From contig NC_136205.1 of the NCBI RefSeq assembly GCF_015852565.1, positions 3,066,707 to 3,130,706 on the forward strand: DNA of 64,000 bases, written 5' to 3'. Of this stretch, positions 28,177 to 52,452 are shown in pieces. Below the pieces are notes generated by a model. The model saw nothing but the letters and a program-made list of their open reading frames with translations. It made no database searches and was not told the DNA's origin. The stretch's first letter is position 1. Each line of letters begins with the position of its first letter. Source of the DNA: Branchiostoma floridae (lineage: Eukaryota). The translations under genes were made by a program, and so were the position numbers.

Positions 28177-28195
28177 GTAAGGCCATTGTGTCACA

Positions 28196-30420: not shown

Positions 30421-30453
30421 TTCTAACATTTCAATCATGGTCCTTTCTTACAG

Positions 30454-30577: not shown

Positions 30578-30605
30578 ACATTTCAATCATGGTCCTTTCT
30601 TACAG

Positions 30606-34997: not shown

Positions 34998-35216
34998 GTT
35001 GTTGTGTTGCAGTCCTATAAGAATGAAAACAATGTTGCCATCGAGGCCAAGTACGTGTTCCCGCTAGATGACATGGCGGCTGTTGTCGGGTTTGAAGCAT
35101 TCATCAACGGGAAGCACGTGGTCGGAGAGGTGAAGGAAAAAGAGGAGGCACATCGCGAGTACCGACAGGCGATCAGCGAGGGACATGGTGCTTACCTCAT
35201 GGACGAAGAAACTCCT
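34998..35216 (+). CDS. PARP4: PARP4 exon 17 (VIT domain)
   Basis: ctctgtag|VVVLQSYKNENNVAIEAKYVFPLDDMAAVVGFEAFINGKHVVGEVKEKEEAHREYRQAISEGHGAYLMDEETP|gtaaga. Near-identical to human AKYIFPLDDKAAVCGFEAFINGKHIVGEIKEKEEAQQEYLEAVTQGHGAYLM. Confidence 0.92.
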
Positions 35217-35665
35217 GTAAGATTCTTGATGACTTAAATTCAACAGTTATTTTTGCAGTATTAGTACTGTTAGTAGTATTTTGTGTAATAGCATTGTGGG
35301 TAAAACTGTTTGCTTTGTATTTGAGATTTTGTGTGTTCAAACCCCAGGTGAGTCATAATAGAGAATTTTGAAGAAATTATGTCATACAGTTTGATGCAAA
35401 AGAATGTGTACTGCCTTATACAGAGTTTTGGGTCACAACAAAATAGCAATATACAAGAGGGCCAAGTAAGTATCCTGGTGGAACCCCAACCCTAGACCAT
35501 ATATCTTTTGACAAGAAAAACTAAGTTTCCACTGGTCAGTCTGTGAATGTTTTACTACCTTCTTGTCACTGCGCCAACAAACAATGTTTCAGTGTCAAAG
35601 AGGTACATTCAATGACACATATCTTTTACATACAGTGACAATTGTTATGATTTGTGTTTTTCTAG

Positions 35666-35800
35666 GATGTGTTTACAGTGAGTGTAGGGAACCTGCCCCC
35701 CAGAGCCAGTGTACTGATCAAGATCACCTACGTCGCTGAGCTGGCAGTGGAGGGAGAAAACATCTGCTTCAGACTGCCTGGCAGCGTCGCTCCCTGGCAG
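35666..35800 (+). CDS. PARP4: PARP4 exon 18 (VIT domain)
   Basis: ttttctag|DVFTVSVGNLPPRASVLIKITYVAELAVEGENICFRLPGSVAPWQ|gtgtgt. Matches human DVFTVSVGNLPPKAKVLIKITYITELS...MPATVAPWQ. Confidence 0.92.
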
Positions 35801-36277
35801 GTGTGTTTGTCTAGAACTTTGTTACCATGGCAACAAGACGTTGTTATCTCCGTGTACGAATGATTCATTCTGTTTTTTTTATATTCTTGGTGTCCGTAGT
35901 TATTTGAATACACTGTCAGTAGATTTTGAGTGTCAGGAAGTGAGTGGGAAAATGGTGTCACAGTGTAAACTTGGGAGAGTGACAGTTCATGAAAGTATCA
36001 GACATGACAGGTCATCGGGTCAATGGAAGAGGCTACTAATTTCACGGGGAGACTATTTTTTTGTCTGTGTATTTGCAGTTATGCATTTTCCACATGCAAG
36101 TCACACTCACTATAGAGTAACAGGAAACAATCATTATTTAATGGACATATAATAAATGTAATAAGGACTTCGAACTCTTGTTTTGGATGTTGAGATAATA
36201 TGTACATTGTATAATGTTTGTTTGATCACAACTAAGATTATTCAAAGATTTTTTAAGCTTAGATTTTCCACCAACAG

Positions 36278-36427
36278 AAAGATTCACTCTCTGAGAAGAT
36301 CCAAAAGGACCTGGAAACTGTCAAGGTGGAAAAGGATGCTGGGAAAGAATTCTCCCTCCAGGTCGCCATGGAGATGCCCTTTGACATCAGGACCATCCAA
36401 TCACCATCTCACAAAATCAGAGTGAAG
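36278..36427 (+). CDS. PARP4: PARP4 exon 19
   Basis: ccaacag|KDSLSEKIQKDLETVKVEKDAGKEFSLQVAMEMPFDIRTIQSPSHKIRVK|gtagaa. Matches human KQSFSLTMSIEMPYVIEFI. Confidence 0.85.
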
Positions 36428-36818
36428 GTAGAAATTACTTCCATGACCTGTTTTGACTCAGCCAAGGCACTCTGTTTCTTTGTCACTAACCATTCTGTTA
36501 TAATTACAAAATGTACTTTGAAAATGCTGATGAGCTTTTGCAAACAAAACAATAAAAACAGTCTTGAAAACAATTATCCAATCAGAGGACTAGATTTTTT
36601 TTAGAATGTTCCTAAATAATGTATTGCATGCTCAGAAATGATTAATGTCATCTCTGACTACTGAGGGCATAATTTTTGTCCTGTAATTTTCTTTGATTTT
36701 TCTTGCTATCCTCTTATATTTTATGAATATACTATTAGATGATAAAGCAGTGGTTTGATAATAGATATTACTTCATTCCTCAGTTATGAATTTAGATGAA
36801 ATGGTTATCTGTGTGTAG

Positions 36819-37007
36819 GGTCAGAGAACGACTCGGCATAATTATAAGTTTCTCTTTATCCCCACCAATCAGAGGACAGCAAGCAAGGCTGTAGTGGAGC
36901 TGGAGAAGAACTGCATGCTGGGAGCTGGTTTCCTGCTGCAGGTTGGGCTGGCTGAGATCCACGTACCCAGGATGTGGGCGGAGCGGCACCCTGACAAGGA
37001 CAGCCAG
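36819..37007 (+). CDS. PARP4: PARP4 exon 20
   Basis: gtgtgtag|GQRTTRHNYKFLFIPTNQRTASKAVVELEKNCMLGAGFLLQVGLAEIHVPRMWAERHPDKDSQ|gtttgt. Matches human LHIGLSAAYLPRMWVEKHPEKESE. Confidence 0.8.
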
Positions 37008-37696
37008 GTTTGTTGGTTTGTTTGAACTTTAGCATGAAAGCTCATCTGTGTTGGTATAATCGATACTGAAGGTTTTTAATTGTCATTCAACACAAGAAAT
37101 TGCTCTCCTCGAATTTTCGGTAGCACATCCGTCAACCTTTGACAGGAGTGGTGGTTCAATTACTCTAAACATGTGATGTAGGAACACGAATGAAGAATCG
37201 TAGATGCTTGGCAAGCGGTATCGGCCCCCGTCTCTGTTAAGTGTCGGCTAGTGTGATCTTATGTGTATGGCCTCCTTTACCCCCCTCGCGAAGTAATCCG
37301 GTTCAGTATCCAATATTTGTGCTTTGTTTTAACTTTGTTTCTTCATAAAAGCTCAAATTGTCCTGCAGGCTGCTTTTCATTGAGGTCATGAGGGAAGAGA
37401 CAAGGGTCAGACTAAGTGTATAACAGAGATACAATACAGTTAATGATGATATGCATTCTTTGATTAATATCATCATATAGCAGGATATCAGTTGATGATA
37501 CTCTTTCCTCTTTTTATTTGAGGGACTGAAAAAGTCACAAAGTTGTGTTTAAGGGTTGAACTATGCCATCTCTTTTTTTAAACCCTCTTCATTATACACA
37601 GGACTGTGAGGGTCAACAAGTTATACTAAGTCTTATGTGGGGGTGAAGTCTGCTATCTCTAATGATTTTACTTAAAAAAAATCTGTTCATACACAG

Positions 37697-37883
37697 GCCT
37701 GTATGCTGACCTTCTACCCAGAATTCCAAGCAGAGGTTATGCAGGGTCATGAGGTCATCCTCCTCTTGGACGGGTCCAACTCCATGCGGGGGTCAGCTCT
37801 GGAGGCAGCCAAGAAAGTCGCCCTGCTCTGTCTGTGCCATCTACCAAAGGAATGTAGCTTTAACGTTGTTGCTTTTGGCACAG
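37697..37883 (+). CDS. PARP4: PARP4 exon 21 (vWA domain start, MIDAS DxSxS)
   Basis: tacacag|ACMLTFYPEFQAEVMQGHEVILLLDGSNSMRGSALEAAKKVALLCLCHLPKECSFNVVAFGT(G)|gtgtgt. Matches human ACMLVFQPD...VIICLDCSSSMEGVTFLQAKQIALHALSL. Confidence 0.88.
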
Positions 37884-37924
37884 GTGTGTTCTTAATCATT
37901 TTCATTTTGAAAACAGATTTGCAA

Positions 37925-38095
37925 TGGAATATGATTCTATTTAACTTTCTTTGGTGCTGATTGGCTATCACACGATGCGGTCTCATTTCAAATGATTCTA
38001 TTTACCTTTCCTTGGTGCTGATTGGCAATCACATGAGGCATTCTCATTTGAAATAATTTTATTTACCTTTCATTGGTGCTGTTTTGCAGATTTGT
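37925..38095. repeat. Minisatellite of ~62-bp units, each carrying CTGATTGGCT (inverted CCAAT / NF-Y-like box), block 1
   Basis: Three units of the form ctttggtgctgattggctatcacacgatgcggtctcatttcaaatgattctatttaa. Confidence 0.7.
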
Positions 38096-38290
38096 AACGG
38101 AATACAAAATAGTCTGAAGCTTCTGTACGTTGGTGCAGTCGCTGTAGAAGAGCAATTTGAAAGAGTGCTCAACAAATTTCATCGATGAAATATCAAACGT
38201 TTGATAGGATATAGCCCTTATTCATGTCCTTGTTAGGTATTGTGATGTAACTAGTTTTTCTTTATAAACTTTACAAATTCCATTTTGTAG

Positions 38291-38364
38291 GATATGAGGA
38301 ACTGTTTGCTGTGAGCCAGTCCAGAACCAAGTCCAATGTCTCTAAGGCTGAAACCTTTATCCAG
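38291..38364 (+). CDS. PARP4: PARP4 exon 22 (vWA)
   Basis: ttttgtag|(G)YEELFAVSQSRTKSNVSKAETFIQ|gtatag. Matches human GYKELFSYPKHITSNTMAAEFIMS. Confidence 0.75.
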
Positions 38365-38469
38365 GTATAGTCTTCATCTCATTGTTATTGAGCATTATAA
38401 CTTATCCCATGTAACTGTCTTTCAAGGTTTATTAGGCAAGAAAACAGTATACTGTTCCTTTTTGTTTGC

Positions 38470-39150
38470 CATTCTAATGAAATCTTGTTTCATCTGTCCT
38501 TGGTGCTGATTGGCTGTTGCATAGGTAGTCTTCTCCTATGTAATGATTATAAACTTATCTTACCTTGGTGCTTATTGGCTGTGACATAAAGAAGTCCTCT
38601 TTCAAATGATTCTATTTCATCTTTCCTTGGTGCTGATTGGCTATCACATAAGGTGGTCTCATTTCAAATGATTCTATTTCATCTTAAGTTGGGTTCTGAT
38701 TGGCTGTGACATTAAGCAGTCTCCTTTCAAATGATTATATTCTATCTCTCCTTGGTGCTGATTGGCTATTACATGAGCAGTCTCATTTCAAATAATTTTG
38801 TTTTATTTAGTTAATGCTGATGGCTTGGAATTTAGGCAGTCTTCTTTCAGATGGTTCTATTTTATTTCTCCTTGGTGCTGATTGGCTATCACATGAAACA
38901 ATCTCATTTCAAATGATTCTATTTCATCCTACGTTGGTGCCAATTGACTATCACATGAGGCGGTCTCATTTCAAATGATTATATTTCATCTTACATTTTA
39001 CTGATTGGCTGGAACTTGAGGCAGTTTCTTTCGAGTGATTTTATCTAGCTTTCCTTGGTTCTGATTTGCTATCATCTCATGCAATGTTATTAAAACTAGT
39101 CTATTTTATCTCTCCTTGGTGCTGATATGCTATCACGTTGTGTAGTCTTT
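38470..39150. repeat. Same CCAAT-containing minisatellite, block 2 (~11 units), in the PARP4 intron between exons 22 and 23
   Basis: Repeated tccttggtgctgattggctatcacatgag…tctcatttcaaatgattctatttcatc units with variants. Confidence 0.75.
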
Positions 39151-39354
39151 TATCTAAGTACTAGTTTTATCCCACCATTTATACTGAATGTCTCTTGGAT
39201 AATCCCATTTGATATCTGATTTCTCTTCCCTTACTAAATATCAAAACACAGCAAACCATACACTTTTTGTAGGTGATTTTCAGTAGTGATACATTTGACA
39301 AGAAAGCCATAGAAAGAAAAATGTTCTTACCAATTTCTGCAATTATTTTATCAG

Positions 39355-39542
39355 AATGTCAAAGCATCCAAGGGAAACACAGATGCATGGAGACCCCTGC
39401 GTGGGTTCTTCCTGCTTCCGCCGTTGGGTAAAACACGGAACGTGTTCCTCATCTCTGACGGACATGTGAACAACCCTGACCAGACTCTGAGCGACATCCA
39501 CCAACATTACCAGGAGACTAGGGTCTTCAGCTGTGGTGTGGG
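39355..39542 (+). CDS. PARP4: PARP4 exon 23 (vWA)
   Basis: tttatcag|NVKASKGNTDAWRPLRGFFLLPPLGKTRNVFLISDGHVNNPDQTLSDIHQHYQETRVFSCGVG|gtaagg. Matches human MGNTDFWKTLRYLSLLYPARGSRNILLVSDGHLQDE...RLFACGIG. Confidence 0.88.
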
Positions 39543-39654
39543 GTAAGGACAAATCTCACAAGATTTTGTGTACTATTCCTTGAACCTTGAACCTTGACCA
39601 TTCAAGATTCAAGATATAACAAATTGATCCTGACTGTCCGTAATAATTAGCAAC

Positions 39655-39735
39655 CAATGACACTACTGGGAGACAAGGGTCTTCAGCTGTGGGGTGGGGT
39701 AAGAATGCATCTCACAAGATTTTGTGTACTGAACT
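39655..39735 (+). pseudogene. Duplicated fragment of the 3' end of PARP4 exon 23 plus its intron start. This is a decoy donor.
   Basis: gagacaagggtcttcagctgtggggtggggtaagaatgcatctcacaagattttgtgtact copies agactagggtcttcagctgtggtgtggggtaaggacaaatctcacaagattttgtgtact at 39515-39575. Confidence 0.65.
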
Positions 39736-40162
39736 TGATTCTACTGGAAGATACATTTGTAAGTCAATGTGTAACAACAGACAGATCCTGGCTGTCCATC
39801 ACAATTAGCAGTTTAACCAATGATGGTATGGTAATTAGTGTTTAGATTGGCTGCAGTCTCGCAGACATTTGCATTTTTCTGTTTTATATCCTATCTTCTG
39901 CTGGAGGTGGATGGGGCTATATGAGATTGGTCTACTGGTTAAGATTTGGAGACTTACTTCATGACTTTTTAGTTACTTTTGTCACTCTTTTTCAACAATA
40001 ATAATATGTAAGATGGAAATAGAACAATTGAACATCACAAAGTCTGTAGAACTCATATGAAAATGATTAGTTACAGAGATTGCCTTCCAACATAGCAACC
40101 TTCCATTTTTTTTTCATGTAGAATGTAGCAACAACACAATAATTCTTGATGCTTGTTTTTAG

Positions 40163-40262
40163 GTCAACTTCCAACAAACATTTGCTGCGAGCCTTGGCCA
40201 GGGTGGGAGGGGGCGCCTTTGAGTATTTTGATGATAAAACCAAATCCAAGTGGGAAAAGAAG
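40163..40262 (+). CDS. PARP4: PARP4 exon 24 (vWA end)
   Basis: gtttttag|STSNKHLLRALARVGGGAFEYFDDKTKSKWEKK|gtaaag. Matches human STANRHVLRILSQCGAGVFEYFNAKSKHSWRKQ. Confidence 0.88.
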
Positions 40263-40489
40263 GTAAAGTCTATCATTTTATATCATGAACATGTAATATG
40301 TTTCATCGTTTCCCATAAAGTTTGCATTGCATGTATATCTTAATCTATATTGTCATTTATCAATAATTACTTTTAATACTCAATTTCATATACTTTATTA
40401 GGCTTTTATGCATTTTGTTATTTATGTATGAATATCAAAACACATAATTCATTACATACTCTCAGGCATACTTTCATACACATGTGCAC

Positions 40490-40575
40490 ACATAATTTTT
40501 ATACAAACACACAAACATACACATAGGCACAGAGACACAAACACACACACACACACACACACATACACACACCAC
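40490..40575. repeat. (CA)n-rich microsatellite
   Basis: acacacacacacacacacacacatacacacac. A second block lies at 40850-40915. Confidence 0.85.
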
Positions 40576-41039
40576 TAAGGTCATCTAAGGTCAGGACACA
40601 CATACCTATATGGTATCAAGTTACATATACTAGGGCAGTATGCAACGGAAAGGTATATAAGTGCGAACTTTGTGTCAGCCTCAAACCTCAGAAGATATTG
40701 AATGTGCACAGCAAAACTGGTTTGGCTGACCAGCTAAAAGTTACACACTGAAACTTGTAGCTCCAGATGTCTTACTGAGGGATGACTGCAGTGCAAAATA
40801 TGTTGGTAGCTTAAAGAATGAGTCCACTCAACTTTATACATAATACACACAACACACATAGGTACACAGACACAAACACACACACATACACACACACACA
40901 CACACATGCACACACATGCATGTACAATCATGTGTACACTGAGAAGATATTAAAGCAAAGCTTAAACCTCAAGTTTACTGTGTTTGATATAGTGACTAAT
41001 ATACATGTAGATGTATCTAAAACCCTGTCAAATTCCTAG

Positions 41040-41210
41040 GTGAAAGCCCAGCTGTGGAAAGCTGCCCAGCCCGGCCTGACGTCCATGTCAGTTGATTGGC
41101 AGCAGTGGGATGATGATGCCCCGCCTCCTGTCCAGGCCCCCAATCAGATCGTCTCTCTCTTCAACGGTTTCCGTCAAGTGGTGTATGGCTACGTCCCACA
41201 CTGCACTCAG
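41040..41210 (+). CDS. PARP4: PARP4 exon 25
   Basis: attcctag|VKAQLWKAAQPGLTSMSVDWQQWDDDAPPPVQAPNQIVSLFNGFRQVVYGYVPHCTQ|gtcaaa. Matches human VKWQQLNPDAPEALQAPAQVPSLFLNDRLLVYGFIPHCTQ. Confidence 0.9.
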
Positions 41211-41612
41211 GTCAAAACATTCCAATATACATGTAGTACCTGTCAACTTGTAAACCTGAGTCTGTAAACTTGTAAAATGCAAAACTTTGTACTAATTTGT
41301 ACCAGGTCTCAATGTTGTGCTCTTTGGAATTTAGGCACAATATCCACACTCATCAGAATGAATACCACAGTATCCATTTTTATTAGAATGAATACCTAAC
41401 TGTTGTTAGTGTCACTAAAATGAGTGATGCTGAAGAAGAGTGATGGATGTCACTTGAAATGTCCGTTTTTTTATCCAGTTGTTGGGATTGAATTGTATTT
41501 GAATATTGTTTACCTGGGTGTCCAACCTTCATAAAGGACTTCTCAAACTAATCTGAAACATGGCTAATCATTCTAAAATGAAAAAGTTTGTAATTGAAAT
41601 TACTGTAAATGT

Positions 41613-41815
41613 ATTTAAGTTCGCGGCGATTTAATTTTGCGGGAGTGGGAAATGGACTTTTCACCGTGGTTTTAATTTTGCAGTAACACCATAGACTACA
41701 GTCTAATACCATAAAGAAAAATGTTCGCGGTGGTTTTAAGTTTGCGGTGAGGTGGTCTCCGCGAAAACAGCTAGCATTAATCCACCACGAACATTTCTGC
41801 ATTTACAGTATTGTT
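41613..41815. mobile_element. Same MITE family, copy 3, in a PARP4 intron
   Basis: ta|ctgtaaatgtatttaagttcgcgg…cacgaacatttctgcatttacag|ta. Confidence 0.7.
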
Positions 41816-41829
41816 TTTATTTATTCCAG

Positions 41830-41910
41830 GCCACCCTGAAGGCTGTCATCAACAACCGGGAAATCAGCACCATGGTCTCCACCACTGAACTCAGCATCAC
41901 CACAGGCAAG
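41830..41910 (+). CDS. PARP4: PARP4 exon 26
   Basis: tattccag|ATLKAVINNREISTMVSTTELSITTGK|gtggga. Matches human ATLCALIQEKEFRTMVSTTELQKTTG. Confidence 0.9.
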
Positions 41911-42407
41911 GTGGGACAGGTTTTTGGCTACACCTCTGGGGTGGAGGCCATATTTCTTTTTAATAGCTGGGATTATTTCCTGTAACCAGGCATTTTAATT
42001 TGTTTGTTGATTGTTTATTTAAGGATTGAGACCTATACTAAACATACATGAGCAAAAGAGAAATAAAGCAACAGCTGCAGTAACAACACAGAATAAGAAC
42101 ATTCATACAACATTTTGGCAACTGTCTGTCACCTTCCTCAGAGCAATTCTGAGGGCCACTACACATTTTAGCTAAGGTGTCGCTGCTAGCAATGCACGTT
42201 AGGAACTATGACAGCCATTTATGCGTTCCCAAATATAACATTATACATATAACATATATTGATCACAATGATTGTTGTCATATATAAAATTACAGATGCC
42301 GACAGTCAGTAGATCCTGGTTGTGAATAAAAAAAATGTTACATTATAATAGTGATTTTCCAACCTGACTAAATGATTCAAAGGACTAACCACACAGTTTT
42401 GTCCCAG

Positions 42408-42488
42408 ATCCTGCACCAGCTGACGGCCCGTGCTGTCATCAGAGACTGGGAGGACGGGACCCTGCATGCAGACAGGATGCACCATGAG
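42408..42488 (+). CDS. PARP4: PARP4 exon 27
   Basis: gtcccag|ILHQLTARAVIRDWEDGTLHADRMHHE|gtcagc. Matches human MIHKLAARALIRDYEDGILHENETSHE. Confidence 0.9.
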
Positions 42489-42952
42489 GTCAGCGTGTTC
42501 TAAATCCTGACATTGAGAATCAGTGTGGTATTCCTCATGTCATGTGTGGCTGTGCTGGGTGGTTGTCTTTGTAGTACCGTAGCACAGTTTTCGTTGCTCA
42601 TTTGTACATTCTGCGGTCATGATCTTCTAATGGTTGATAGGTCTTTGGCTCATGAAAAAGTGGTATAATTTTGGGCCCTCTGGCAGCTTTTTTTAAACTG
42701 TAGGAGGCGATGTTTGAAAAAAAGAGTAAGGCAGGTAGGGGTTGACGGATTGTCACAATTTTTGCTATGTAGATGGCTTAAGAGATAATTGACATACTTA
42801 GTTGGCTTGTGTAAAGGGGTATAGTTTGGGGCTCTTTGGCAGCTTTTTTTGTAACTGCAGGAGCAGGATCTTCATGAATTTTGGTTAAAAAAAAACTTTG
42901 TAGATGGCTTTAGAGATAATTGACATGCTTATCTTTCTCTCTTTTTTTCCAG

Positions 42953-43054
42953 ACAAAGAAAATGGGTCTGAAGCCGTACATTATCGACCTTAGTAAGGAG
43001 TACTCCATCGTCACACAGTTCACCAGCTTTGTAGCTGTGGAGAAGCGGGAAAAG
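42953..43054 (+). CDS. PARP4: PARP4 exon 28
   Basis: ttttccag|TKKMGLKPYIIDLSKEYSIVTQFTSFVAVEKREK|gtgaga. Matches human MKKQTLKSLIIKLSKENSLITQFTSFVAVEKRDE. Confidence 0.9.
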
Positions 43055-43529: not shown

Positions 43530-43657
43530 GATGAAGATCTGACTACCGGTGAGGGTCCAAGCATCACAGAACTGGTGGAAAAAGAGAGTGTGGACATCCT
43601 ATCCTACATGGGATGGGAGAGGGACAAAGGGGAAGAGGAGGCAGAGGAAGTGTATAA
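43530..43657 (+). CDS. PARP4: PARP4 exon 29 (ends in a basic NLS-like stretch)
   Basis: gatgcag|DEDLTTGEGPSITELVEKESVDILSYMGWERTKGKRRQRKCI(+AG)|gtatga. Matches human NESPFPDIPKVSELIAKEDVDFLPYMSWQGE...KRKHRK. Leaves phase 2. Confidence 0.75.
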
Positions 43658-43785
43658 GGTATGAGCCAAATTAAAGTGGAATTTTGGCTTGCTTTAAAAT
43701 GAAAGATTTTTGTGAAGAAAATCAAGTACGTGTGCCTTAAATTTTTTGACTGGACATCGCATAGTTTCTTGTATTCAATTTCTAG

Positions 43786-44187
43786 AATAAAGTGCTTGAT
43801 GGACAGATCACAGAAAAGGCCATTGAACACAGCTTGGAGTTCTACACCACTGCAGTGGAGACTGCAAAAAGGGAGCTTCCCCCAACCCATCCAACAGTGT
43901 TGCAGTCACAGCTCTCTTTGGCAATGTTTTATCACAACAAATTGAATATGCAGGACAAGGCCTGCCTGGTTGCAAAGGCTGCCTTTGACGATGCGATCGC
44001 GGAGTTGGATACTCTGAGCAAGGAAAGCTACAAGGACTCGACCTTGGTGATGCAGCAGTTGAGAGACAACTTGACATTGTGGTCTGCTGAGGACGGGGAA
44101 GAAGAGAAAAAAGCCAACGAAAAGAAAAAGGTCCTTATTCCTAGTGTCAACCATAGCTCACTTTGGCTAATCAACCTTCTCGGATGA
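43786..44187 (+). CDS. Intact ORF encoding a 14-3-3 protein C-terminal half (helices 7-9, including 14-3-3 signature 2). It is embedded between PARP4 exons 29 and 30. Its status is unresolved: it could be an exonized module, a nested-gene exon or a young pseudogene fragment.
   Basis: [109 protein letters not shown]. Compare 14-3-3 epsilon [42 protein letters not shown]...[41 protein letters not shown]. The frame is open from the tttctag| acceptor-like site at 43785 to the TGA at 44185. It is not in phase with the exon-29 donor when obvious splice sites are used. Confidence 0.5.
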
Positions 44188-44194
44188 AGCCCAT

Positions 44195-44575
44195 CTTACA
44201 TACCCAACCATGGCCTCGCGACCTTCTCCAGACCATGGTTGGGAGTTAAGCCCCTGTCACACATAGCCGACCATGCCCTCCCAACCTTCTTCAGACCATG
44301 GTCAGGAGTTAAGCCCTTGTCTTACATACCTGACCATGGCCTCCCAACCTTCTCCAGACCATGGTCAGGAGTTAAGCCCTTGTCTTACATACCTGACCAT
44401 GGCCTCCCAACCTTCTCCAGACCATGGTCAGGAGTTAAGCCCTTGTCTTACATACCTGACCATGGCCTCCCAACCTTCTCCAGACCATGGTTGGGAGTTA
44501 AGCCCGTCTTACATACCCAACCATGGCCTCGCGACCTTCTCCAGACCATGGTTGGGAGTGAGACCATCAGTAATT
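44195..44575. repeat. Tandem array (~6 copies) of a 63-bp (3n) unit with internal palindromes (catacctgaccatgg…ccatggtcagg). It is open in two reading frames.
   Basis: ccatggtcaggagttaagcccttgtcttacatacctgaccatggcctcccaaccttctccaga repeated. ORFs 44239-44613 and 44273-44632 are open only because of the 3n periodicity. Confidence 0.7.
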
Positions 44576-45028
44576 TGGACCAGACCAAACTTGGCAAAGT
44601 CATATTCTTCTAAGGTGCAAGCAGATTGGTAAAATGGAATATGGTTGGTAGCAAGTCATTGAAAGGTCCTGAATTTGTGACAGGGGATGTGACTAGTACA
44701 TAATTTTGCATGGAAACGGGAATAGACCGACTGAGTGTGCTTGTTAAAACTAAGAGTAGATTATCTTCAAGACCAGAATCTTCAAATTACCAATTGAATT
44801 TATCATAACTTTTCTATATTTGATGTTGTCAACAGGTCATAGAGGAAGTTTATTATGAAGAGGTTTTAATGGGAGGTAAGATACCAATTAATCTTTAATT
44901 TACATTTAGTTTAACCTTGTATTAAGTTGGAATTTATTGAATGGTTGATCATGAGATTTCAACACCAAGGACTCTATTGAAATGCACATCTTGATTTTGT
45001 TTTGGTATTTTTATTTTCCAACTTCTAG

Positions 45029-45169
45029 ACTTGGATGATTTTGACATGGAGGACCCTGAGTATCTAGAAATGGGAGGTGCTGGTGTTTCCTCCAGCACAG
45101 AGGAGACAGAATCTGATGACTCGTGGGGATCAGATTCAGATCTAGATGAAGAGAGTGAATGTGAGGAAG
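45029..45169 (+). CDS. PARP4: PARP4 C-terminal-region exon 30 (acidic)
   Basis: cttctag|(x)LDDFDMEDPEYLEMGGAGVSSSTEETESDDSWGSDSDLDEESECEE(G)|gtaaga. Phase 1 in and out. It chains in phase to the next two exons. Confidence 0.55.
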
Positions 45170-46037: not shown

Positions 46038-46133
46038 GAGGTAAGGAAACAGTAAGAAAGAAAGATTCATCATCACCAGAGGAGGAAGAGAGTGAAGAAG
46101 AGATGGGGTTTGGATTGTTTGATGATGGTGAAG
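46038..46133 (+). CDS. PARP4: PARP4 C-terminal-region exon 31, carrying a ribosomal P-protein-like tail motif (SPEEEESEEEMGFGLFDD)
   Basis: ttcacag|GGKETVRKKDSSSPEEEESEEEMGFGLFDDGE(G)|gtagga. Phase 1 in and out. Confidence 0.55.
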
Positions 46134-46398
46134 GTAGGATGGCAGGTGAGATGGTAGAGTACTGTAAATCTTGAGATGCATGGTTTTCATGGTGACATCT
46201 CCACCATGATACAATCGCCATACAAACAGCCCGGCTGGGCCCTGGGTTATAGAAATGTGACTTAGTCCTTACTGTTACCTAGTTTAATAAAAGAGACAAC
46301 GAAAAAGAACTGCAGTCAAAAATCATACTTTTGACACTTTTTGTTGGGCTCCGTTTTTCAAAGACACTAACTCTTGAATCTTTCTATTTCTTCAACAG

Positions 46399-48751
46399 CT
46401 GCTGATGAAAAAGAGGGTTCTCCTCTTGCTGATACTTATCAGATGAAGGCTAATGCCTTGCAATTGGAAAAAGGTCGATTTGCATCTCCCATGAGGTCTA
46501 GATCAAGGTCAAGGTCAGATAAACATTCCTCTCCAGCATACAGCCCGACATCTCCAGCATATAGCCCAGCATCTCCAGCATATAGCCCGACTTCACCTAC
46601 TGAGGAAGCCACAGAGGCTGAGTACACAAAGCCTAAACCTCTAGCTCGGAAAATGGCACCAAAACGGGTCGAAAAGGAGAAGGCACCAAGCCCACACTTC
46701 TCAAAGATGTCTGCAACGTTCTTGACCCGAGAATCTGAAAGGGGAAAGTCCTCATACAGAGTGTCAGATGAAGTTCAGGCTCGTGTAGATCGCCTTGATG
46801 ATCTAGTAGAAAAAGCTGATGCTCTTAGTGCACAAGCTGCAATATTTGGTGCTTCAACAACCATTTCTAAAGATGATGGCCTCTTTGCCGGTTCAACAGA
46901 GGCAAGTGTGCAGAAACCTAAACCTTTTGAATCCAAGCCAGGTATCGTTCAACCTGCCAGATTTACTTATGAAGCAACACCAGATACTACCAAGGGTCTT
47001 TTTGGCAGAAAGGCTGAACCAGAGACTGCAGGGTTTGCTCTTGCCCAGTCTGTGGCCGCAGAAGAGCCAGCTCCTGCTTTTGGTTTTGGAGCTCCAGTTG
47101 CAAGCTTTGGTGCAGAAACTTATGGAACTCGTGGTGTAGACTTGGATGCACCCATACCGTATGGCAAAATCCCAGTTGGTGGAACGCCGTTTGGTGAAAC
47201 GCCAGTTAGTGGAAAGCCGTTTGGTGAATCTGCTGTAAAGTTTGGAGGTCCTCCTGGCACTGTAGCTGGCACAAAGACGCAAGAGACTGCATTTGGTCAG
47301 GGTTTTGGTTATGCTTCAAGTCGTGGTGTAGGCTTTGGTAAAGCAACATTTGGTGAAGCAACATATGGCACACCATTTGGTGGAACACCATTTGCTGCAA
47401 CCACAGGTCTTTTTGCCCACTCAACTGCACCAAAGGATCAGGAAGCTGTGTCATTTGGTTTTGCTCCCTCTACTGACCAGAGCACAAGGGGTGGTGGAGG
47501 ATCCGCAGGTGGTTTTAGCTTTGGTTGGACTGCATCATCAGATTTGGGACAGAGGGATCGAGACAGGAGCTCCCCCCTAATTGGTGACACAAAAAAAGGA
47601 TTCAAGTTTGGAGCCTCACTTGAAGAGAAAGAAGAAACAGCAAGCTTTAGCTTTGGTGGATCCAGCCAGAAAGTGGTTCCTCAAGCAGGTTTTGGAGCTG
47701 ATCAACAGATGCAGCAGCAACAACAGCAACAACAACAACAGGCTCAGATGAATGTCTCTGATACTGCTCCTCAGAGGAAGATGCGAAGCAGGCTTCATGG
47801 CGCTATAGCTACCTTAAGTGAATCCAGTCAAGCAGAAATGGTTCCTGAAGCAGGTTTTATCTCCAATCAACGGATGCAGCAGCAACAGGCTCAGATGGAT
47901 GTTCTTCTTACTGCTCCTCCGAGGACAGGTGGTGGAAGGGTTCATGGCGCTTTAACTAGATTAGACGAATCCAGTCAAGCAAAAGTGGTTCCTCAAGCAC
48001 GTGTTGGCTCTCGAGCTCCTCAAAAAGCGAGGAAGACAACTGGCGGCAAGGCTGTTAGAGTTTCTTCAGGATTCAAGGACAGCTTGGACATCGTAGACAA
48101 GAGTTCACGCGACACTGGTGACTCTTGGAGAGCTGTCAAACGGACCGAGACCCCCATGGCTGGTTATTTTGACATGAGGGCCATGTCCCCTGCCTCAACA
48201 AATTCTGCACAGTCAGTTGCTTTTCAACAGCTGTCAGCATCTGCTGCCTTTCTACAGGCACCCCCTCCTGCGCCACCCCCTTGTTCAACAGGCCCCCCTC
48301 CTCTTCCACCCCGCTGCCCAGCAGGACCCCCTCCTCCAGCTGGTGCCCCTCCCCCACCACCACCACCCCCTAAGGGCATTCAGCTTCTTAAACCAAGAGC
48401 AAGTTTAAAGTCCAAAGCAGTAATGGCAGCACCCATGCGTGCACTATCCATGCCCTCGAAAGAATATGCCCCATTGCCCCCTCCTCCTCCAAGTTCAGTC
48501 GAACAGGCACCAGAGCTACCAGCATGGGATAGAGAAGAAGAACTGCAAATGGGGATTGTTGAAGAAAGCCGTGCAATTGCTTCGTATGAACAGATGGAAG
48601 AGTTAAAACCATTGTCAAGAAGTTTGGAATTGAGACAAAAGAAGAAAAAGAAACAGTTCGAAATCCAGGCAAGGTTGGAGGAAGAAAAGGTATCATTGGA
48701 CAAAGTCATGTACATGGATGAAAGCGTTCAAGAAGGAGAGGAAATGTACAG
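46399..48751 (+). CDS. PARP4: PARP4 giant low-complexity exon 32 (784 codons) with five modules: SPAYSPT CTD-like heptads, FG/GF repeats, polyQ, an FH1-like polyproline run and a basic KKKKKQFEIQARLEEEK tail
   Basis: Single ORF 46374-48755. The acceptor ttcaacag|CT at 46398 is in phase with exon 31. The donor ATGTACAG|gtaaga at 48751 is in phase with exon 33. The position corresponds to the Pro/Ser-rich disordered region of human PARP4. Confidence 0.65.
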
Positions 48752-49442
48752 GTAAGAGTGAAGTCAACAAAGTACAGTCTCTACCTAATTAGATGAATGT
48801 GAAATTTTCCACAAATCGGGGGAATATTTTATCTGAGAGCTTGCAATTGCCTGGTTAATGTAGTACAGGCTTGTCCGCTGAAGATTGTAACTTGTAACTG
48901 TAGCCCTTTGGCCAATTTCTACTGATTTTTCACATAAACCACAGTCTCATAGGGACTAAATGAAATGTTTGATTTATGTAATTGTGGCAAACATGTTGCC
49001 TACCTGAGCTTTTCAAAGGAAAAATGTAAAGTTTCAATAAAGTTAACGTAAATTACTTTCAAGGACCAATTTAGGGACTATTCTTGACAATTGAACTACA
49101 TGTAAATCCAAGGTTACACAAAGCTTACCATAAAAGTGTACAACTTGTGATAACAGTCATTATTTTCCACATAAAGCAGTGTTCAAGTTTGTGGGCACGG
49201 GTCAATGGTATGCAAATGTATTGTGTCGTCTTAACTTTATTCTTTAAAGTAGGGGTTCTTTGCATTGAGCAATTTCATGATATTCATACAATGCCACATC
49301 GTTGTAAACACCACAGAAGACAGTATCTCTTTTGTTTAGTATTTTTGTTTGATGTCAGCCTGTTGTTACATGATTGTGTATAATTATGCCTTTGTCATCT
49401 TGTTCATGACTTTTGTAACATGTATTACAAACTTTATTTCAG

Positions 49443-49519
49443 GACCAGTTTGAGGGGGTTTTACGGTCCAAGAAGAGGTCCCGGTGCATATCACTCTGCC
49501 AGCTTTCATCTAACCTCAG
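49443..49519 (+). CDS. PARP4: PARP4 exon 33
   Basis: tatttcag|(R)TSLRGFYGPRRGPGAYHSASFHLTS|gtaggt. Matches human GFGSYHPSASSPFHFQPS. Confidence 0.6.
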
Positions 49520-49978
49520 GTAGGTTAATCAATTCATGTGCAAAGTAAGGCTAATATCAGTAGTCTAAGACTAGATGGAGAGCTTTTTTATATAGTCATC
49601 CAAAGATCTAAACTTCATTGAAATATCATGATAGGACCGTTGATCATTGAAATAGCATTGAAAGATGTTGTAGGTCACTAAAATATCATTAGTAAGACCA
49701 TACTTCAAATGGGGGCATGGGTTCGTATCCCACTTCTGACACCATATTGGCTTAGAGATTATCTCAGTCGTAGACTTAAAATGCTCAACATTTCTTGTCC
49801 CAAAGAACTAATTGCCAAGGTACAATGGACCTGTAAATACTGTACACAGTGTCCATCTTACCTGTCATGACCAGTGCAGATGTTAGTAATGACTGACTAA
49901 GAAAAAAGAAATTGCACAAATGTCTAATCTGAAAAATGATGCTCACAAGTAATCATGTTTTTTTTCAACCCTCTGCAG

Positions 49979-50079
49979 GTTCCTTTAGTGGAAGAGAAAT
50001 TGATGTAGTACCTGTCGTGACCACAAGGGGGAGGGTCATCACAGAGACAACTGTTGACCAAATCTTTGCACTGCTAAAG
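49979..50079 (+). CDS. PARP4: PARP4 exon 34
   Basis: ctctgcag|(G)SFSGREIDVVPVVTTRGRVITETTVDQIFALLK|gtatca. Phase-consistent. Confidence 0.55.
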
Positions 50080-50578
50080 GTATCATTTGTAATTATTGGT
50101 TCAAATATAAAGTATAGTAGCTCTAGTTTTAGAGTGATGAATTACTGTAACATTAACACTGAATTTATTCTTTTTTGAGTGGGAGATTAGAATTGGTCTT
50201 GCACCCATCCATAATTTGACTGTTTTTTTGACAGTTTACTGCGTACTCGGATGCCAAAATGTTCTTTTATTCTTTATTGCAGGCGCTAATAGGCCCATAG
50301 TAAAAGCCTACTGTATAAGACACACAACATAACATAGATATTAAAACAACAATGCCACTCTATGTGTACAAGCGCCTCCTGATGTTTTTGAAATATTATT
50401 GTGTTATGGTAGAAAGAATCCAACTAGATGGAATGGGAAGAGTGGAAAAGCGGAATATACAAAAGAACGTTTGCGTCATGATAGAGTAATATTAGCATAG
50501 ATAATACCATAGTTTACTCATATAGCTAAAACCCAAGGATAAAACAATCAAATTTAATTATATTGCCCCCCTCCCCAG

Positions 50579-50693
50579 CACACTGACCAGGGGCTCTCCT
50601 ACTGGGAGTTCAGTCCAGAGTTAGACGAGTTGCTTGGGATTTCCAGTCAGCAGTGCATCCAGATATTTAACACTGCAGGACTCAAATCTCTGG
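50579..50693 (+). CDS. PARP4: PARP4 exon 35 (MVP-interaction region)
   Basis: ctccccag|HTDQGLSYWEFSPELDELLGISSQQCIQIFNTAGLKSL(G)|gtaaga. Matches human TEDGFWKLTPELGLILNLNTNGLHSFLKQKGIQSLG. Confidence 0.85.
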
Positions 50694-51244
50694 GTAAGAT
50701 CTCATTCATGATCATGGTCATAAGGATATGTGTCCATACATGTAGTCAGGTCAGATGACAACTGTTTCCCTCCTGTCAACAGTCTTTCAGCCTGCAAAAA
50801 GAATCTTCACATCTATTTCCTTGCATGATACTAAGTAATTTTCGCAAACCCATCAACTTAGTTCATTGCCTAGAAGTGGTCAAATGGTCTTGCTTTGATC
50901 AAGCCATATTGCATTAACAAAAGGTAAAGAAATGAAATAAGGAATGAATGAAGACCTTTATTCTACATTTTTGCCCAACTGAACTAAGCACAGGTCACAA
51001 GAAAGACAAAACACACAATGTTATGCAAAAGTACAATATTATTTGTATCATAGATCTAATCTAGTGAAGAAGTTTGGCTTCTTCTCCCTTCCTGGTAATG
51101 GTAAAAATGTAGGCTTGTATGTTGTTAGGTTTGTCAAAATGCAACTCATATCTATTAAGTGAATCTACTTCCTATTTCTATCATTAACATAGTGCATAGT
51201 CCAATCAACAACGAAGTGAACTTCATCTTCATTTATCTTCATCT

Positions 51245-51330
51245 CCAGGTGTGAATGTTGCCAGGCAGATACTGCAGCTGGTGGCCACCTTTGAACAAGC
51301 TCGTACAAAAAACATTGAAAAATACCTTTA
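51245..51330 (+). pseudogene. Degenerate partial duplicate of PARP4 exon 36 (…VNVARQILQLVATFEQARTKNIEKYL*)
   Basis: ttcatctccag|GTGTGAATGTTGCCAGGCAGATACTGCAGCTGGTGGCCACC... has the same acceptor and first 45 nt as the exon at 51380, then diverges to a stop. Confidence 0.6.
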
Positions 51331-51379
51331 AGTTAGCACTGAGTGGGACATAATTTTTTATTTTTATTTTGATCTCCAG

Positions 51380-51555
51380 GTGCGAATGTTGCCAGGCAGC
51401 TGCTGCAGCTGGTGGCCACCTTGCTGGTTGTGCAGCTGCTGATGCTGCACCTGCCGCAGCTGTTCCCCAGCTGCAGGAGCCTGCTGCACCTGGATGTGGC
51501 GCAGGTGCCGGCCAAGTGGTGCAGTGCATTGCAGCAGGTGCTCACATGGGCCAAG
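51380..51555 (+). CDS. PARP4: PARP4 exon 36 (MVP-interaction region)
   Basis: atctccag|(G)ANVARQLLQLVATLLVVQLLMLHLPQLFPSCRSLLHLDVAQVPAKWCSALQQVLTWAK|gtagga. Matches human RECLLDLIATMLVLQFIRTRLEKEGIVFKSLMKMDDASISRNIPWAFEAIKQASEWVRR. Confidence 0.8.
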
Positions 51556-51654
51556 GTAGGATTTTGTACTACAAAACTACCAAAACTAGACTGAGTTTGT
51601 ACTACAAAAACTTAATTTGTATACACTTGTTGCAAGAAGAGGAAAGAGACATGT

Positions 51655-51870
51655 AAATGATAGATGTAATAATAGTGGCGCAGGCGTCAGCCACTTGGTG
51701 CAGCACACTGCAACAGGTGCTCACATCGGCCAAGGTAGGAGTTACCTACTGATAATATGAGGGGCAATCAATAAGTTTACACAGAAAAAAGGTGCACAAC
51801 TCAAATTTTGGAGCATTATAAACTATATGAATGTGCACCAAAATTCAATGGGCCAAGGTAGGAGTTGGCT
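51655..51870 (+). repeat. Two extra copies of the exon-36 3' end plus donor junction (…CAACAGGTGCTCACATCGGCCAAG|gtaggag) and downstream intron start
   Basis: 51690-51740 and 51845-51870 repeat the sequence GGGCCAAGgtaggagtt...gaggggcaatcaataag. Confidence 0.6.
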
Positions 51871-52353
51871 ACTTAGTATGAGGGGTGATCAATAAATTCT
51901 TGGACTCATGAATAAAGGTGCTTAACTCAGATTTTGGATCTGATGTAAAGTATAAAGTATTATATGAATTTGTACCATAATTCAAATCATTGTGATCATT
52001 ATTGTACAGGCAACACCCAGTAATGGTAGGTAAGAGAGAAGAAAAAACATGGACAATTGAGCTGCAAGCTGAGGTGTGCATGTCAACTTGTTCTGCTAAA
52101 TGTCGGATACTAATAAAAGAATTAGGCACTGAAGAGGACGAATTTGAAAGAGAAATCAAGAAGCTTAAGATCACACCAATGTTCACTCATCAGGTATAAG
52201 CTTTGTTGTACTGTTGACCAATCGCTTACGTGACATGAATTATGAGGAAGACTGCAGTTGAAATTTCTATGTACTATTTTCTTGTGGTGGAACAAAATTT
52301 TAATTCTGTTATCATATAAATCTATTCGTTTATTAATTTTTCTATTTTCACAG

Positions 52354-52452
52354 AGTGTTGACACGATGCACCCATCAGTGTACTCCCGTTTGGAGCTTGG
52401 GAAGAGTTGGGAGGACCTGACCACAAAGCTGATCGGTGTCAGCAATGCATAG
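52354..52452 (+). CDS. PARP4: PARP4 terminal exon 37 with stop codon
   Basis: ttttcacag|SVDTMHPSVYSRLELGKSWEDLTTKLIGVSNA*. Matches the human C-terminus YPSICPRLELGNDWDSATKQLLGLQP. Confidence 0.85.
   Translation, partial: SVDTMHPSVYSRLELGKSWEDLTTKLIGVSNA

What the first reader, a model, noticed from the sequence alone, without database searches (positions are those of the whole stretch)
43786..44187. Intact 14-3-3 C-terminal half (helices 7-9, signature 2) embedded inside the vault-PARP gene
A 134-codon open frame between PARP4 exons 29 and 30 encodes …ELPPTHP…[45 protein letters not shown]…. This is the ligand-groove half of a 14-3-3 protein. It covers helices 7-9 and the diagnostic YKDSTL[IV][11 protein letters not shown] motif, and nearly every signature residue is conserved. 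The N-terminal half, including signature 1 (RNLLSVAYKN), is nowhere in the window. The ORF opens exactly at an acceptor-like tttctag|, runs without a stop, and ends in a 14-3-3-style acidic tail. Three explanations fit:
- (a) a 14-3-3 fragment exonized into PARP4's disordered C-terminal region;
- (b) the 3' exons of a nested 14-3-3 gene;
- (c) a very young pseudogene fragment.
On (a): exon 29 leaves phase 2 and exon 30 needs phase 1 in. Joining through the weak sites acacag|CTTGG (43833) and CCTA|gtgtca (44143) would satisfy both phases, which makes (a) formally possible. A half 14-3-3 fused to a vault component would be an undescribed architecture.
Basis: partly seen in the sequence, partly recalled or inferred. 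Interest (0 to 1): 0.75.

Follow-up and report, generated by a model that had tools for sequence, protein, structure and literature searches.

The report
14-3-3 half is a PARP4 exon
The half 14-3-3 sequence is a real, conserved coding exon of the amphioxus vault-PARP (PARP4) gene, an architecture already reported in 2014, and it is one example of a wider, little-studied habit of PARP4 of carrying pieces of very conserved cell proteins in its flexible tail.

Summary
Window 43786-44184 is an open frame matching the C-terminal part of the 14-3-3 family (Pfam E=1.7e-30, profile 128-223 of 223). No N-terminal half occurs in the window.

It is neither a pseudogene nor a nested gene. It is a coding exon of PARP4 in a Branchiostoma (amphioxus) genome.
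- Exon '29' (43530-43658) ends in phase 0.
- Acceptors at 43786 and 43807 are both in frame.
- 44143|GT is the only donor giving the phase that the next exon (45029) needs.
- Skipping the exon shifts the frame.

The annotated PARP4 proteins of B. lanceolatum and B. belcheri contain it. dN/dS against B. lanceolatum is 0.21 (0.10 for helices H-I), while the flanking introns cannot be aligned.

The architecture is not undescribed. Perina et al. 2014 list PARP4-like proteins with an appended 14-3-3 domain, naming B. floridae. The module lacks the phosphate-binding and dimerisation helices, so it cannot act as a canonical 14-3-3.

In passing, I found that PARP4 linkers across animals and amoebae carry fragments of 14-3-3, ubiquitin, actin, VAMP, HSP70, calmodulin, the ribosomal P-stalk tail and Pol II CTD heptads. 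A bait or decoy role is speculative but testable.

The parts
43530..43658 (+). It is phase 0 at both ends, with donor AAG|GTATGA.
   Evidence: Homology to PARP4 of Lingula, Ridgeia, Anneissia, P0233 and B. lanceolatum. Splice context and frame.
43786..44143 (+). 14-3-3-like coding exon (helices alpha-F to alpha-I plus a short charged tail), 358 nt. Acceptor is tttctag|43786. An alternative in-frame acceptor, CAG|43807, corresponds to the site used in the B. lanceolatum gene model. Donor is TTCCTA|GTGTCA at 44143/44144, which leaves phase 1.
   Evidence: Pfam and PDB matches. In-frame joining, and a frameshift if the exon is skipped. It is the only phase-1 donor. Conservation island against B. 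lanceolatum, dN/dS 0.21. Present in the annotated PARP4 of B. lanceolatum and B. belcheri.
44144..45028 (+). Intron following the 14-3-3 exon. It contains a 63-bp tandem repeat (44194-44559, 5.8 copies). Reading through the donor meets TGA at 44185.
   Evidence: B. belcheri has no intron at this point, and its contiguous KKKVPNL matches the window's spliced KKKVLIP|NL.
45029..45169 (+). Acceptor ttctag|, phase 1 in and phase 1 out.
   Evidence: The order of segments agrees with the B. belcheri PARP4 model.
46038..46145 (+). Exon encoding GGKETVRKKDSSSPEEEESEEEMGFGLFDDGEGRMA, a copy of the ribosomal P-stalk C-terminal peptide.
   Evidence: Pfam Ribosomal_60s E=0.0017, matching profile positions 68-88 of 88. 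tblastn with RPLP2. B. belcheri has DMEFGLFD at the same place. Frame.
46399..48752 (+). Large exon of the disordered linker (3' end not determined). It carries Pol II CTD-like heptads (about 46530-46601), a VAMP-like SNARE-motif stretch (46767-46856), FG-type repeats (about 47076-47690), polyQ and polyPro tracts.
49471..52440 (+). Exons of the C-terminal MVP-interaction domain of PARP4 (approximate span).
   Evidence: tblastn of the B. belcheri PARP4 model, whose product hits Pfam PARP4_MVP-ID.
21542..43054 (+). Upstream PARP4 exons (BRCT, PARP regulatory and catalytic, VIT, vWA, rest of the ITIH-like region).
   Evidence: tblastn of B. lanceolatum PARP4. ORF list.

Best explanation
The segment is a constitutive coding exon of the amphioxus PARP4 (vault PARP) gene. 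It encodes a truncated 14-3-3 module (helices alpha-F to alpha-I) at the start of the long disordered linker that joins the ITIH-like region (VIT/vWA) to the C-terminal MVP-interaction domain.

Shown:
- It splices in frame between the YMGW exon and the acidic exon.
- It is needed to keep the frame.
- It is conserved under purifying selection among Branchiostoma species.
- It is part of the annotated PARP4 proteins of the sister species.

Inferred, origin: it descends from a fuller 14-3-3 domain appended to clade-5 PARPs. That domain is near full length in dictyostelids and in the mussel cassette. It is reduced to a half in this genome and in B. lanceolatum, and to helices H-I only in B. belcheri.

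Inferred, function: the module lacks helices A-E. It therefore lacks the dimer interface and the K49/R56/R127/Y128 phosphate-binding cluster, and N173 in helix G is also lost. It cannot work as a canonical dimeric phosphoserine reader. The selected part is the alpha-H/alpha-I surface ([34 protein letters not shown]). The most likely role is a tethered protein-interaction or mimic module displayed on the PARP4 linker, presumably inside the vault. It would present a 14-3-3-like surface to partners that normally recognise 14-3-3.
For: - Identity: Pfam and PDB matches.
- Gene context: PARP4 exons on the same strand, upstream and downstream.
- Splicing logic: exon 29 ends in phase 0; acceptors 43786 and 43807 are in frame; donor 44143 is the only one giving phase 1; exon 30's acceptor needs phase 1; skipping, or using donor 44130, gives an early stop. 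The downstream frame is validated by agreement with the B. belcheri protein. The junction-spanning P-N-L matches contiguous sequence in B. belcheri.
- Annotation: B. lanceolatum PARP4 CAH1248284.1 reads ...YMGWERDQGETE|IMEKATEDSLEFY...LTLW and carries PF00244. B. belcheri KAI8502339.1 also carries it.
- Selection: window vs B. lanceolatum dS=0.54, dN=0.11, omega=0.21. Helices H-I give omega=0.10, and the value vs B. belcheri is 0.13. Counts are 27 synonymous and 28 non-synonymous changes, where neutrality predicts about 11 and 44. There is no stop or frameshift in three species, and the flanking introns are unalignable.
- Same architecture elsewhere: contig L001 has the PARP4 YMGW exon running into the 14-3-3 half without any intron. 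In Mytilus trossulus a three-exon 14-3-3 cassette lies between the same PARP4 exons with symmetric phase 1-1. Dictyostelid PARP4-like proteins also carry it.
- Published: Perina et al. 2014.
- Loss of canonical function residues: alignment.
Against: - No transcript or peptide data could be consulted, so exon use in this species is inferred from phase logic, conservation and sister-species annotation.
- The donor TTCCTA|GTGTCA is weak, and the equivalent position is not conserved in B. lanceolatum or B. belcheri. The sequence after the 14-3-3 exon evolves fast.
- The B. lanceolatum model simply reads through and stops, so a truncated isoform ending after the 14-3-3 module is possible.
- In mussels one PARP4 model (P0249) skips the cassette, and NCBI annotates it as a separate 14-3-3 epsilon-like gene. 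Inclusion may therefore be regulated in some lineages.
- Nothing tested here shows what the module binds, or whether a four-helix half folds stably on its own.
Confidence: 0.82

Rival explanations
1. Alternative terminal or cassette exon. The 14-3-3 exon is used only in a minority isoform. Examples would be a truncated PARP4 that reads through the 44143 donor to the TGA at 44185 and lacks the vault-binding domain, or a separate transcript, as in the nested-gene annotation in mussels.
For: The B. lanceolatum model ends by read-through just after the module. In Mytilus the cassette is phase-symmetric and is skipped in one PARP4 model, and NCBI also models it as a 208-aa '14-3-3 protein epsilon-like' gene starting at an internal ATG. 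The 44143 donor is weak.
Against: In this window, skipping the exon shifts the frame of all downstream PARP4 exons, whose frame is confirmed by homology. The window has no N-terminal 14-3-3 exons and no in-frame ATG before helix G, so a free-standing 14-3-3 protein cannot be made. The B. belcheri model continues through to the MVP-interaction domain.
Confidence: 0.12
2. Dead fragment. This would be a recent retro-inserted or duplicated piece of a 14-3-3 gene lying in a PARP4 intron, open by chance.
For: It is only a partial domain, and a tandem repeat lies immediately downstream. No protein more than 62% identical was found in the first database search.
Against: It is orthologous in three Branchiostoma species at dS 0.5-0.7, with omega 0.1-0.2 and no disabling mutation, while the flanking introns have diverged beyond alignment. 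It is bounded by in-phase splice sites rather than a poly(A) tail or target-site duplications. It is about 40% diverged at the protein level from every canonical 14-3-3, yet 133 codons stay open.
Confidence: 0.02
3. Functional canonical 14-3-3 domain. The module would still bind phosphoserine/threonine clients, perhaps completing its groove with another 14-3-3 or with PARP4 helices.
For: Helix I groove residues (L216, N224, W228) and the whole signature 2 are retained.
Against: Helices C and E, which carry K49, R56, R127 and Y128, are absent. So is the dimerisation region (helices A-D). N173 in helix G is replaced by Ser and L220 by Gln. B. belcheri keeps only helices H-I. Even the full-length PARP4-embedded copies of dictyostelids and mussel have lost the basic cluster.
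Confidence: 0.04

Closest known systems
Clade 5 (vault) PARP4-like proteins with an appended 14-3-3 domain (Perina et al. 2014, DNA Repair 23:4-16, PMC4245714)
   Same: The core is the same (PARP catalytic, VIT, vWA), followed by a 14-3-3 match. The paper names Branchiostoma floridae, Strongylocentrotus purpuratus, Capsaspora and four amoebae. I recovered the same architecture in B. lanceolatum, B. belcheri and four dictyostelids.
   Different: The paper records a domain hit only. Here the exon structure, phases, truncation to helices F-I (H-I in B. belcheri), loss of the phosphate-binding residues and purifying selection are worked out. Whether the window is B. floridae itself was not verified.
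Canonical 14-3-3 proteins (Pfam PF00244; e.g. human zeta and epsilon)
   Same: About 60-65% identity over helices F-I. Signature 2 is nearly intact, and the charged tail follows LTLW.
   Different: There are no helices A-E, hence no dimer interface, no signature 1 and no K49/R56/R127/Y128 pocket. Helix G groove residues are changed. The module is embedded in a polypeptide of more than 2000 residues instead of being a free 30-kDa dimer.
Mytilus trossulus '14-3-3 protein epsilon-like' (P0021), nested in the PARP4 gene
   Same: It occupies the same position, between the YLGW exon and the following linker exon. It shares derived helix-G residues (LSLSAFYHD against LSLAMFYHN here). It shows 59-62% identity to the window exon.
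   Different: The mussel copy has three exons and keeps degenerate helices C-E. It is phase-symmetric (1-1), so it can be skipped, and it is followed by an actin N-terminal fragment that the window lacks.
Integrated decoy domains of plant NLR immune receptors (analogy only)
   Same: Pieces of conserved host proteins are fused into a rapidly evolving part of a protein suspected of a role in immunity. Different lineages carry different pieces.
   Different: PARP4 is not an NLR. No effector binding, signalling output or immune phenotype is known for these modules. The parallel rests on architecture alone, and no paper in the searched library makes it.

Membership tests
14-3-3 family (PF00244) | Significant match to the family profile above the curated threshold | tested here: met
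   E=1.7e-30, 106.7 bits against a cut-off of 33.2. PDB 14-3-3 chains match with E down to 3e-33.
14-3-3 family (PF00244) | Complete nine-helix domain (alpha-A to alpha-I), including signature 1 RNLLSVAYKN | tested here: not met
   Only profile positions 128-223 are matched. tblastn with full-length 14-3-3 sequences finds nothing else in the window.
14-3-3 family (PF00244) | Signature 2 [18 protein letters not shown] | tested here: met
   [18 protein letters not shown], with two substitutions. This is the most constrained part, with omega 0.10.
14-3-3 family (PF00244) | Phosphate-binding cluster K49, R56, R127, Y128 and groove Asn173/Asn224 (residue roles taken from established knowledge of 14-3-3 zeta) | tested here: not met
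   Helices C and E are absent. N173 is replaced by Ser. N224 and W228 are kept.
14-3-3 family (PF00244) | Dimerisation through N-terminal helices | tested here: not met
   The N-terminal helices are absent from the exon and from the window.
14-3-3 family (PF00244) | Folds as the alpha-F to alpha-I helical hairpins of the 14-3-3 fold | not tested
   No structure prediction was run. With canonical 14-3-3 sequences as the alignment, it would be close to circular.
PARP4-like (clade 5 PARP) with appended 14-3-3 | PARP catalytic + VIT + vWA encoded upstream on the same strand in one gene | tested here: met
PARP4-like (clade 5 PARP) with appended 14-3-3 | 14-3-3 sequence joined in frame to the PARP4 exons | tested here: met
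   In-silico splicing. Contiguous ORF in L001. Sister-species protein models.
PARP4-like (clade 5 PARP) with appended 14-3-3 | The exon is present in mature mRNA or protein of this species | not testable with these tools
   No RNA-seq, cDNA or proteome data were accessible.
Processed or duplicated pseudogene fragment | Neutral evolution (omega about 1), disabling mutations, a poly(A) or target-site-duplication scar, absence from related species | tested here: not met
   Omega is 0.21. The frame is open in three species. The segment is bounded by splice sites, and orthologous loci are present.

The most novel reading that the evidence does not exclude
The PARP4 linker is an array of integrated baits. 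In different lineages, the disordered region between the ITIH-like region and the vault-binding domain has acquired and kept fragments of very conserved hub proteins: 14-3-3, ubiquitin (made uncleavable as ...RGG-Pro), actin residues 1-70, the VAMP SNARE motif, the HSP70 substrate-binding domain, calmodulin/EF-hand, a Ras-family GTPase, the ribosomal P-stalk tail, Pol II CTD heptads and FG repeats. From my own knowledge, not tested here, many of these are host proteins that bacterial toxins and viral factors use as cofactors, docking sites or substrates. On this reading, PARP4 displays these mimics inside the vault to capture, ADP-ribosylate or sequester pathogen proteins, or to sense them. 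That would give the vault an innate-immune trapping function. It would also explain why the same linker is the sole target of positive selection in mammals (Daugherty et al. 2014).
Probability: 0.22. Interest if true: 0.9.

Novelty: already known. Interest (0 to 1): 0.42.

Why it matters
The flagged feature itself is settled. It is a genuine, selected part of PARP4, and the architecture has been in the literature since 2014, so it is not a discovery.

Its value lies in what it points to. The function of the vault particle and of PARP4 has been open for decades. The only evolutionary clue so far is positive selection confined to the disordered linker in mammals (PMC4038475). The linker of non-mammalian and amoebal PARP4 repeatedly carries conserved fragments of 14-3-3, ubiquitin, actin, VAMP, HSP70, the P-stalk tail and others, and at least one of them is under strong purifying selection. 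This turns a vague idea, that the linker binds something from pathogens, into concrete experiments with defined baits.

Tried and rejected
- The first database search with the exon gave only canonical 14-3-3 fragments, none above 62% identity. It gave no clue to the organism.
I replaced it with an alignment of P0233 and the window ORF. The profile kept only the 284 P0233 positions, but it still retrieved about 150 PARP4 representatives.
- Lingula, Ridgeia and Anneissia PARP4 loci showed no 14-3-3 sequence after the YMGW exon. Downstream sequence available was 4 kb, 10 kb and 0.5 kb respectively. The module is therefore not universal in invertebrates.
- No actin fragment was found in the window, although the mussel and L001 have one after the 14-3-3 module.
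The strong-looking donor AAAAAG|GT at 44130 was rejected because it is phase 0 and gives a stop in exon 30.
- Donor conservation could not be used. The sequence 3' of the exon is unalignable between species.
- Literature searches linking PARP4 with 'decoy', 'mimic', 'integrated domain', 'bait', 'tripwire' or 'synaptobrevin' found no paper proposing the bait idea.
- Structure prediction was not run. With canonical 14-3-3 sequences as the alignment it would be nearly circular, and the spliced PARP4 context cannot be submitted.
- The species of the window was not verified. It is inferred to be a Branchiostoma species, probably B. floridae, from 70-100% exon identity to B. lanceolatum and dS of about 0.5.

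Full report
**1. What is in the sequence**

Window 43786-44184 is a 133-codon stop-to-stop open frame on the + strand. It matches Pfam 14-3-3 with E=1.7e-30 (106.7 bits, cut-off 33.2) over profile positions 128-223 of 223. It also matches solved 14-3-3 structures with E down to 3e-33, aligning to residues ~135-240.

Signature 2 is nearly intact ([18 protein letters not shown]). Helix G is strongly diverged, including N173->S. tblastn with a full-length 14-3-3 and with a divergent PARP4-embedded 14-3-3 finds no N-terminal half anywhere in the window.

**2. Context**

The window is a eukaryotic genome with a PARP4 gene on the + strand running from about 21.5 kb to at least 52.4 kb. BRCT, PARP, VIT, vWA and later exons match known PARP4 proteins.

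The closest protein is PARP4 of Branchiostoma lanceolatum (CAH1248284.1), at 70-100% identity exon by exon. Its locus shows the same upstream EGF-repeat gene on the opposite strand. The window is therefore an amphioxus PARP4 locus, probably B. floridae. The species is an inference and was not verified.

**3. The segment is a PARP4 exon**

*Splicing and reading frame*
- The preceding exon (43530-43658, ...SVDILSYMGWERDKGEEEAEEVYK) ends on a complete codon at AAG|GTATGA.
- The open frame starts on a complete codon at the strong acceptor tttctag|43786. A second in-frame acceptor, CAG|43807, corresponds to the one used in the B. lanceolatum model.
- The next PARP4 exon has a strong acceptor, ttctag|45029, and needs one base from the previous exon.
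- Among all GT sites after the 14-3-3 signature, only TTCCTA|GT at 44143 supplies that base.
- The joined product reads ...EEVYK[NKVLDGQ]ITEK...[24 protein letters not shown]|NLDDFDMEDPEY...
- It stays in frame through the next two exons into the large linker exon. That frame agrees with the B. belcheri PARP4 protein.
- Skipping the exon, or using the better-looking donor at 44130, gives a stop within 12 codons.

*Sister-species annotation*
- The B. lanceolatum protein runs ...YMGWERDQGETE|IMEKATEDSLEFY...LTLWSDEDREKGKEKEKVLAP and carries PF00244.
- The B. belcheri protein (KAI8502339.1) carries helices H-I ([34 protein letters not shown]). It continues through DMEFGLFD, YSPTSPT, FG repeats and polyPro to the MVP-interaction domain.
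- In B. belcheri the sequence KKKVPNL is contiguous. This matches the window's spliced KKKVLIP|NL.

*Selection*
- Aligned to the B. lanceolatum locus, similarity starts at about 43795 and stops at about 44143. Both flanking introns are unalignable.
- Nei-Gojobori estimates over 114 codons are dS=0.54, dN=0.11, omega=0.21.
- For helices H-I, omega is 0.10. Against B. belcheri it is 0.13.
- The neighbouring PARP4 exon 29 gives 0.22.
- Observed changes are 27 synonymous and 28 non-synonymous. Neutrality predicts about 11 and 44 (my arithmetic from the counts).
- No stop or frameshift is present in any of the three species.

*Same architecture elsewhere*
- A JGI metagenome contig (L001) encodes PARP4 exons. 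Its YMGW region continues without any intron into a 14-3-3 half, has a 62-nt intron at AFD|G, and then an actin N-terminal fragment.
- In Mytilus trossulus a three-exon, nearly complete but degenerate 14-3-3 lies between the same PARP4 exons. It is annotated by NCBI as '14-3-3 protein epsilon-like'.
- The mussel cassette has symmetric phase 1-1, so it can be included or skipped in frame. An actin N-terminal exon follows it.
- Dictyostelid PARP4-like proteins (Cavenderia, Heterostelium, Synstelium, D. purpureum) carry near full-length 14-3-3 domains at the same place.
- Lingula and Ridgeia lack the module.

**4. Rivals**

*Young pseudogene fragment.* This is excluded by orthology, omega and the splice-site boundaries.

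There are no N-terminal exons and no start codon before helix G, and skipping the exon breaks PARP4.

*Minority or truncated isoform.* One that reads through the weak 44143 donor to the TGA at 44185 cannot be excluded without RNA data. The B. lanceolatum model ends that way.

**5. How it probably works**

Shown: the module lacks helices A-E, and with them the dimer interface and the K49/R56/R127/Y128 phosphate pocket. N173 and L220 are replaced. Even the full-length PARP4-embedded copies in amoebae and the mussel have lost the basic cluster, and B. belcheri keeps only helices H-I.

Inferred: it is not a canonical phosphoserine reader. Selection acts on the alpha-H/alpha-I surface. The module most likely serves as a tethered interaction or mimic surface on the PARP4 linker. 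The residue roles come from established knowledge of 14-3-3 zeta structures, not from a test here.

**6. Comparison with what is known**

Perina et al. [quoted passage not shown] They name four amoebae, Branchiostoma floridae, sea urchin and Capsaspora, and they also mention actin and ubiquitin-related extra domains.

What is added here:
- the exon anatomy;
- the truncation series, from full domain to half to helices H-I;
- the loss of canonical residues;
- the evidence of purifying selection.

**7. A wider pattern seen in passing**

*In this window.* The linker after the 14-3-3 exon contains:
- a copy of the ribosomal P-stalk tail (EEEESEEEMGFGLFDD; Pfam Ribosomal_60s E=0.0017);
- three Pol II CTD-like heptads;
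- a VAMP-like SNARE stretch;
- FG-type repeats;
- polyPro.

*In other PARP4 proteins.* Pfam scans of 56 PARP4 representatives, and local phmmer over 148, find the following in the same linker:

| Fragment | Count and detail |
|---|---|
| 14-3-3 | 16 of 56 |
| Ubiquitin | 15 of 148; 8 of 12 inspected end ...RGG-Pro |
| Actin, residues ~2-70 | 6, including Nematostella, Hydra and Magallana |
| VAMP SNARE motif | Protopterus, Pelomyxa and one metagenome protein |
| HSP70 substrate-binding domain | 4 |
| Calmodulin/EF-hand | 2 |
| Ras-family domain | 1 |
| MGFGLFD-type P-stalk tails | about 9 |
| YSPTSPS heptads | about 9 |

One metagenome protein (P0338) carries a 14-3-3 relic, a ubiquitin-like module, actin 1-70, an MGFMLFD tail and an HSP70 domain in a row. 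Some hits at protein ends could be fused gene models. P0283 (Mytilus edulis) is one example.

*Relation to published work.* Daugherty et al. 2014 showed that positive selection in primate PARP4 is confined to this disordered linker. They proposed that it binds pathogen factors. Suskiewicz et al. 2023 place the linker between the ITIH-like region and the MVP-interaction domain. No paper in the searched library proposes that the embedded fragments are baits or decoys. I offer that reading as the most novel one not excluded, with low probability.

**8. Verdict**

Interest in the feature itself is modest. The wider linker pattern deserves a systematic follow-up.

Noticed in passing
window 46038-46145 (peptide at 46058-46123): A PARP4 linker exon encodes KKDSSSPEEEESEEEMGFGLFDD, a near copy of the C-terminal tail of ribosomal stalk proteins P0/P1/P2 (Pfam Ribosomal_60s E=0.0017). 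Similar tails (MGFGLFD, DMEFGLFD, MGFALFD) occur in the PARP4 of B. belcheri, dictyostelids and others.
   Followed up: partly
window about 46530-46601, 46767-46856, about 47076-47690, about 48261-48374: The large linker exon carries three Pol II CTD-like heptads (SPAYSPTSPAYSPASPAYSPTSP), a VAMP-like SNARE-motif stretch (DEVQARVDRLDDLVEKADALSAQAAIFGAS; weak Pfam Synaptobrevin hit, also seen in Lingula), FG-type repeats and a polyproline tract.
   Followed up: partly
PARP4 representatives P0241-P0388 (not in the window): PARP4 linkers of many animals and amoebae embed fragments of ubiquitin, actin residues ~2-70, the VAMP SNARE motif, the HSP70 substrate-binding domain, calmodulin/EF-hand and a Ras-family domain. 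Ubiquitin is found in 15 proteins, and 8 of the 12 inspected end ...RGG-Pro. P0338 has five such modules in tandem. Only the 14-3-3, actin and ubiquitin-related domains are mentioned in the 2014 survey.
   Followed up: partly
window 30278-30706: A 152-bp unit is repeated 2.8 times at 97% identity. Each copy contains a PARP catalytic-domain exon segment (…YSTSAAYSSPNKSRGTRYMVVSEVALGKCKDVY…). This could be a very recent tandem exon duplication, mutually exclusive exons or an assembly artefact.
   Followed up: no
window 44194-44559: A 63-bp tandem repeat (5.8 copies, 91% matches, open in two frames) fills part of the intron right after the 14-3-3 exon. B. belcheri has no intron at that point, so the intron may have arisen from an insertion.
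   Followed up: partly
window 31017-32288: A 424-codon open frame with reverse-transcriptase-like sequence (…FSAAFDVINH…) lies inside a PARP4 intron. It is probably a retrotransposon.
   Followed up: no
window about 1500-10200, minus strand: A long series of EGF-like repeat exons (…[16 protein letters not shown]…) lies upstream of PARP4 on the opposite strand. The same neighbour (EGF, EGF_TEN) is annotated beside PARP4 in B. lanceolatum.
   Followed up: no
L005 6001-7363 and 10163-10573 (Mytilus trossulus): The gene annotated as '14-3-3 protein epsilon-like' lies inside PARP4. It is phase-compatible (1-1) with the flanking PARP4 exons, so it may be an alternative PARP4 cassette rather than an independent gene. 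An actin N-terminal exon follows it.
   Followed up: partly
L001 1164-2020 (JGI sample 3300046527, unidentified eukaryote): An intron-poor PARP4 locus with 60-240-nt introns encodes PARP4 YMGW region, then a 14-3-3 half, an acidic linker and actin residues ~4-70, all in one frame. The organism is unknown.
   Followed up: partly
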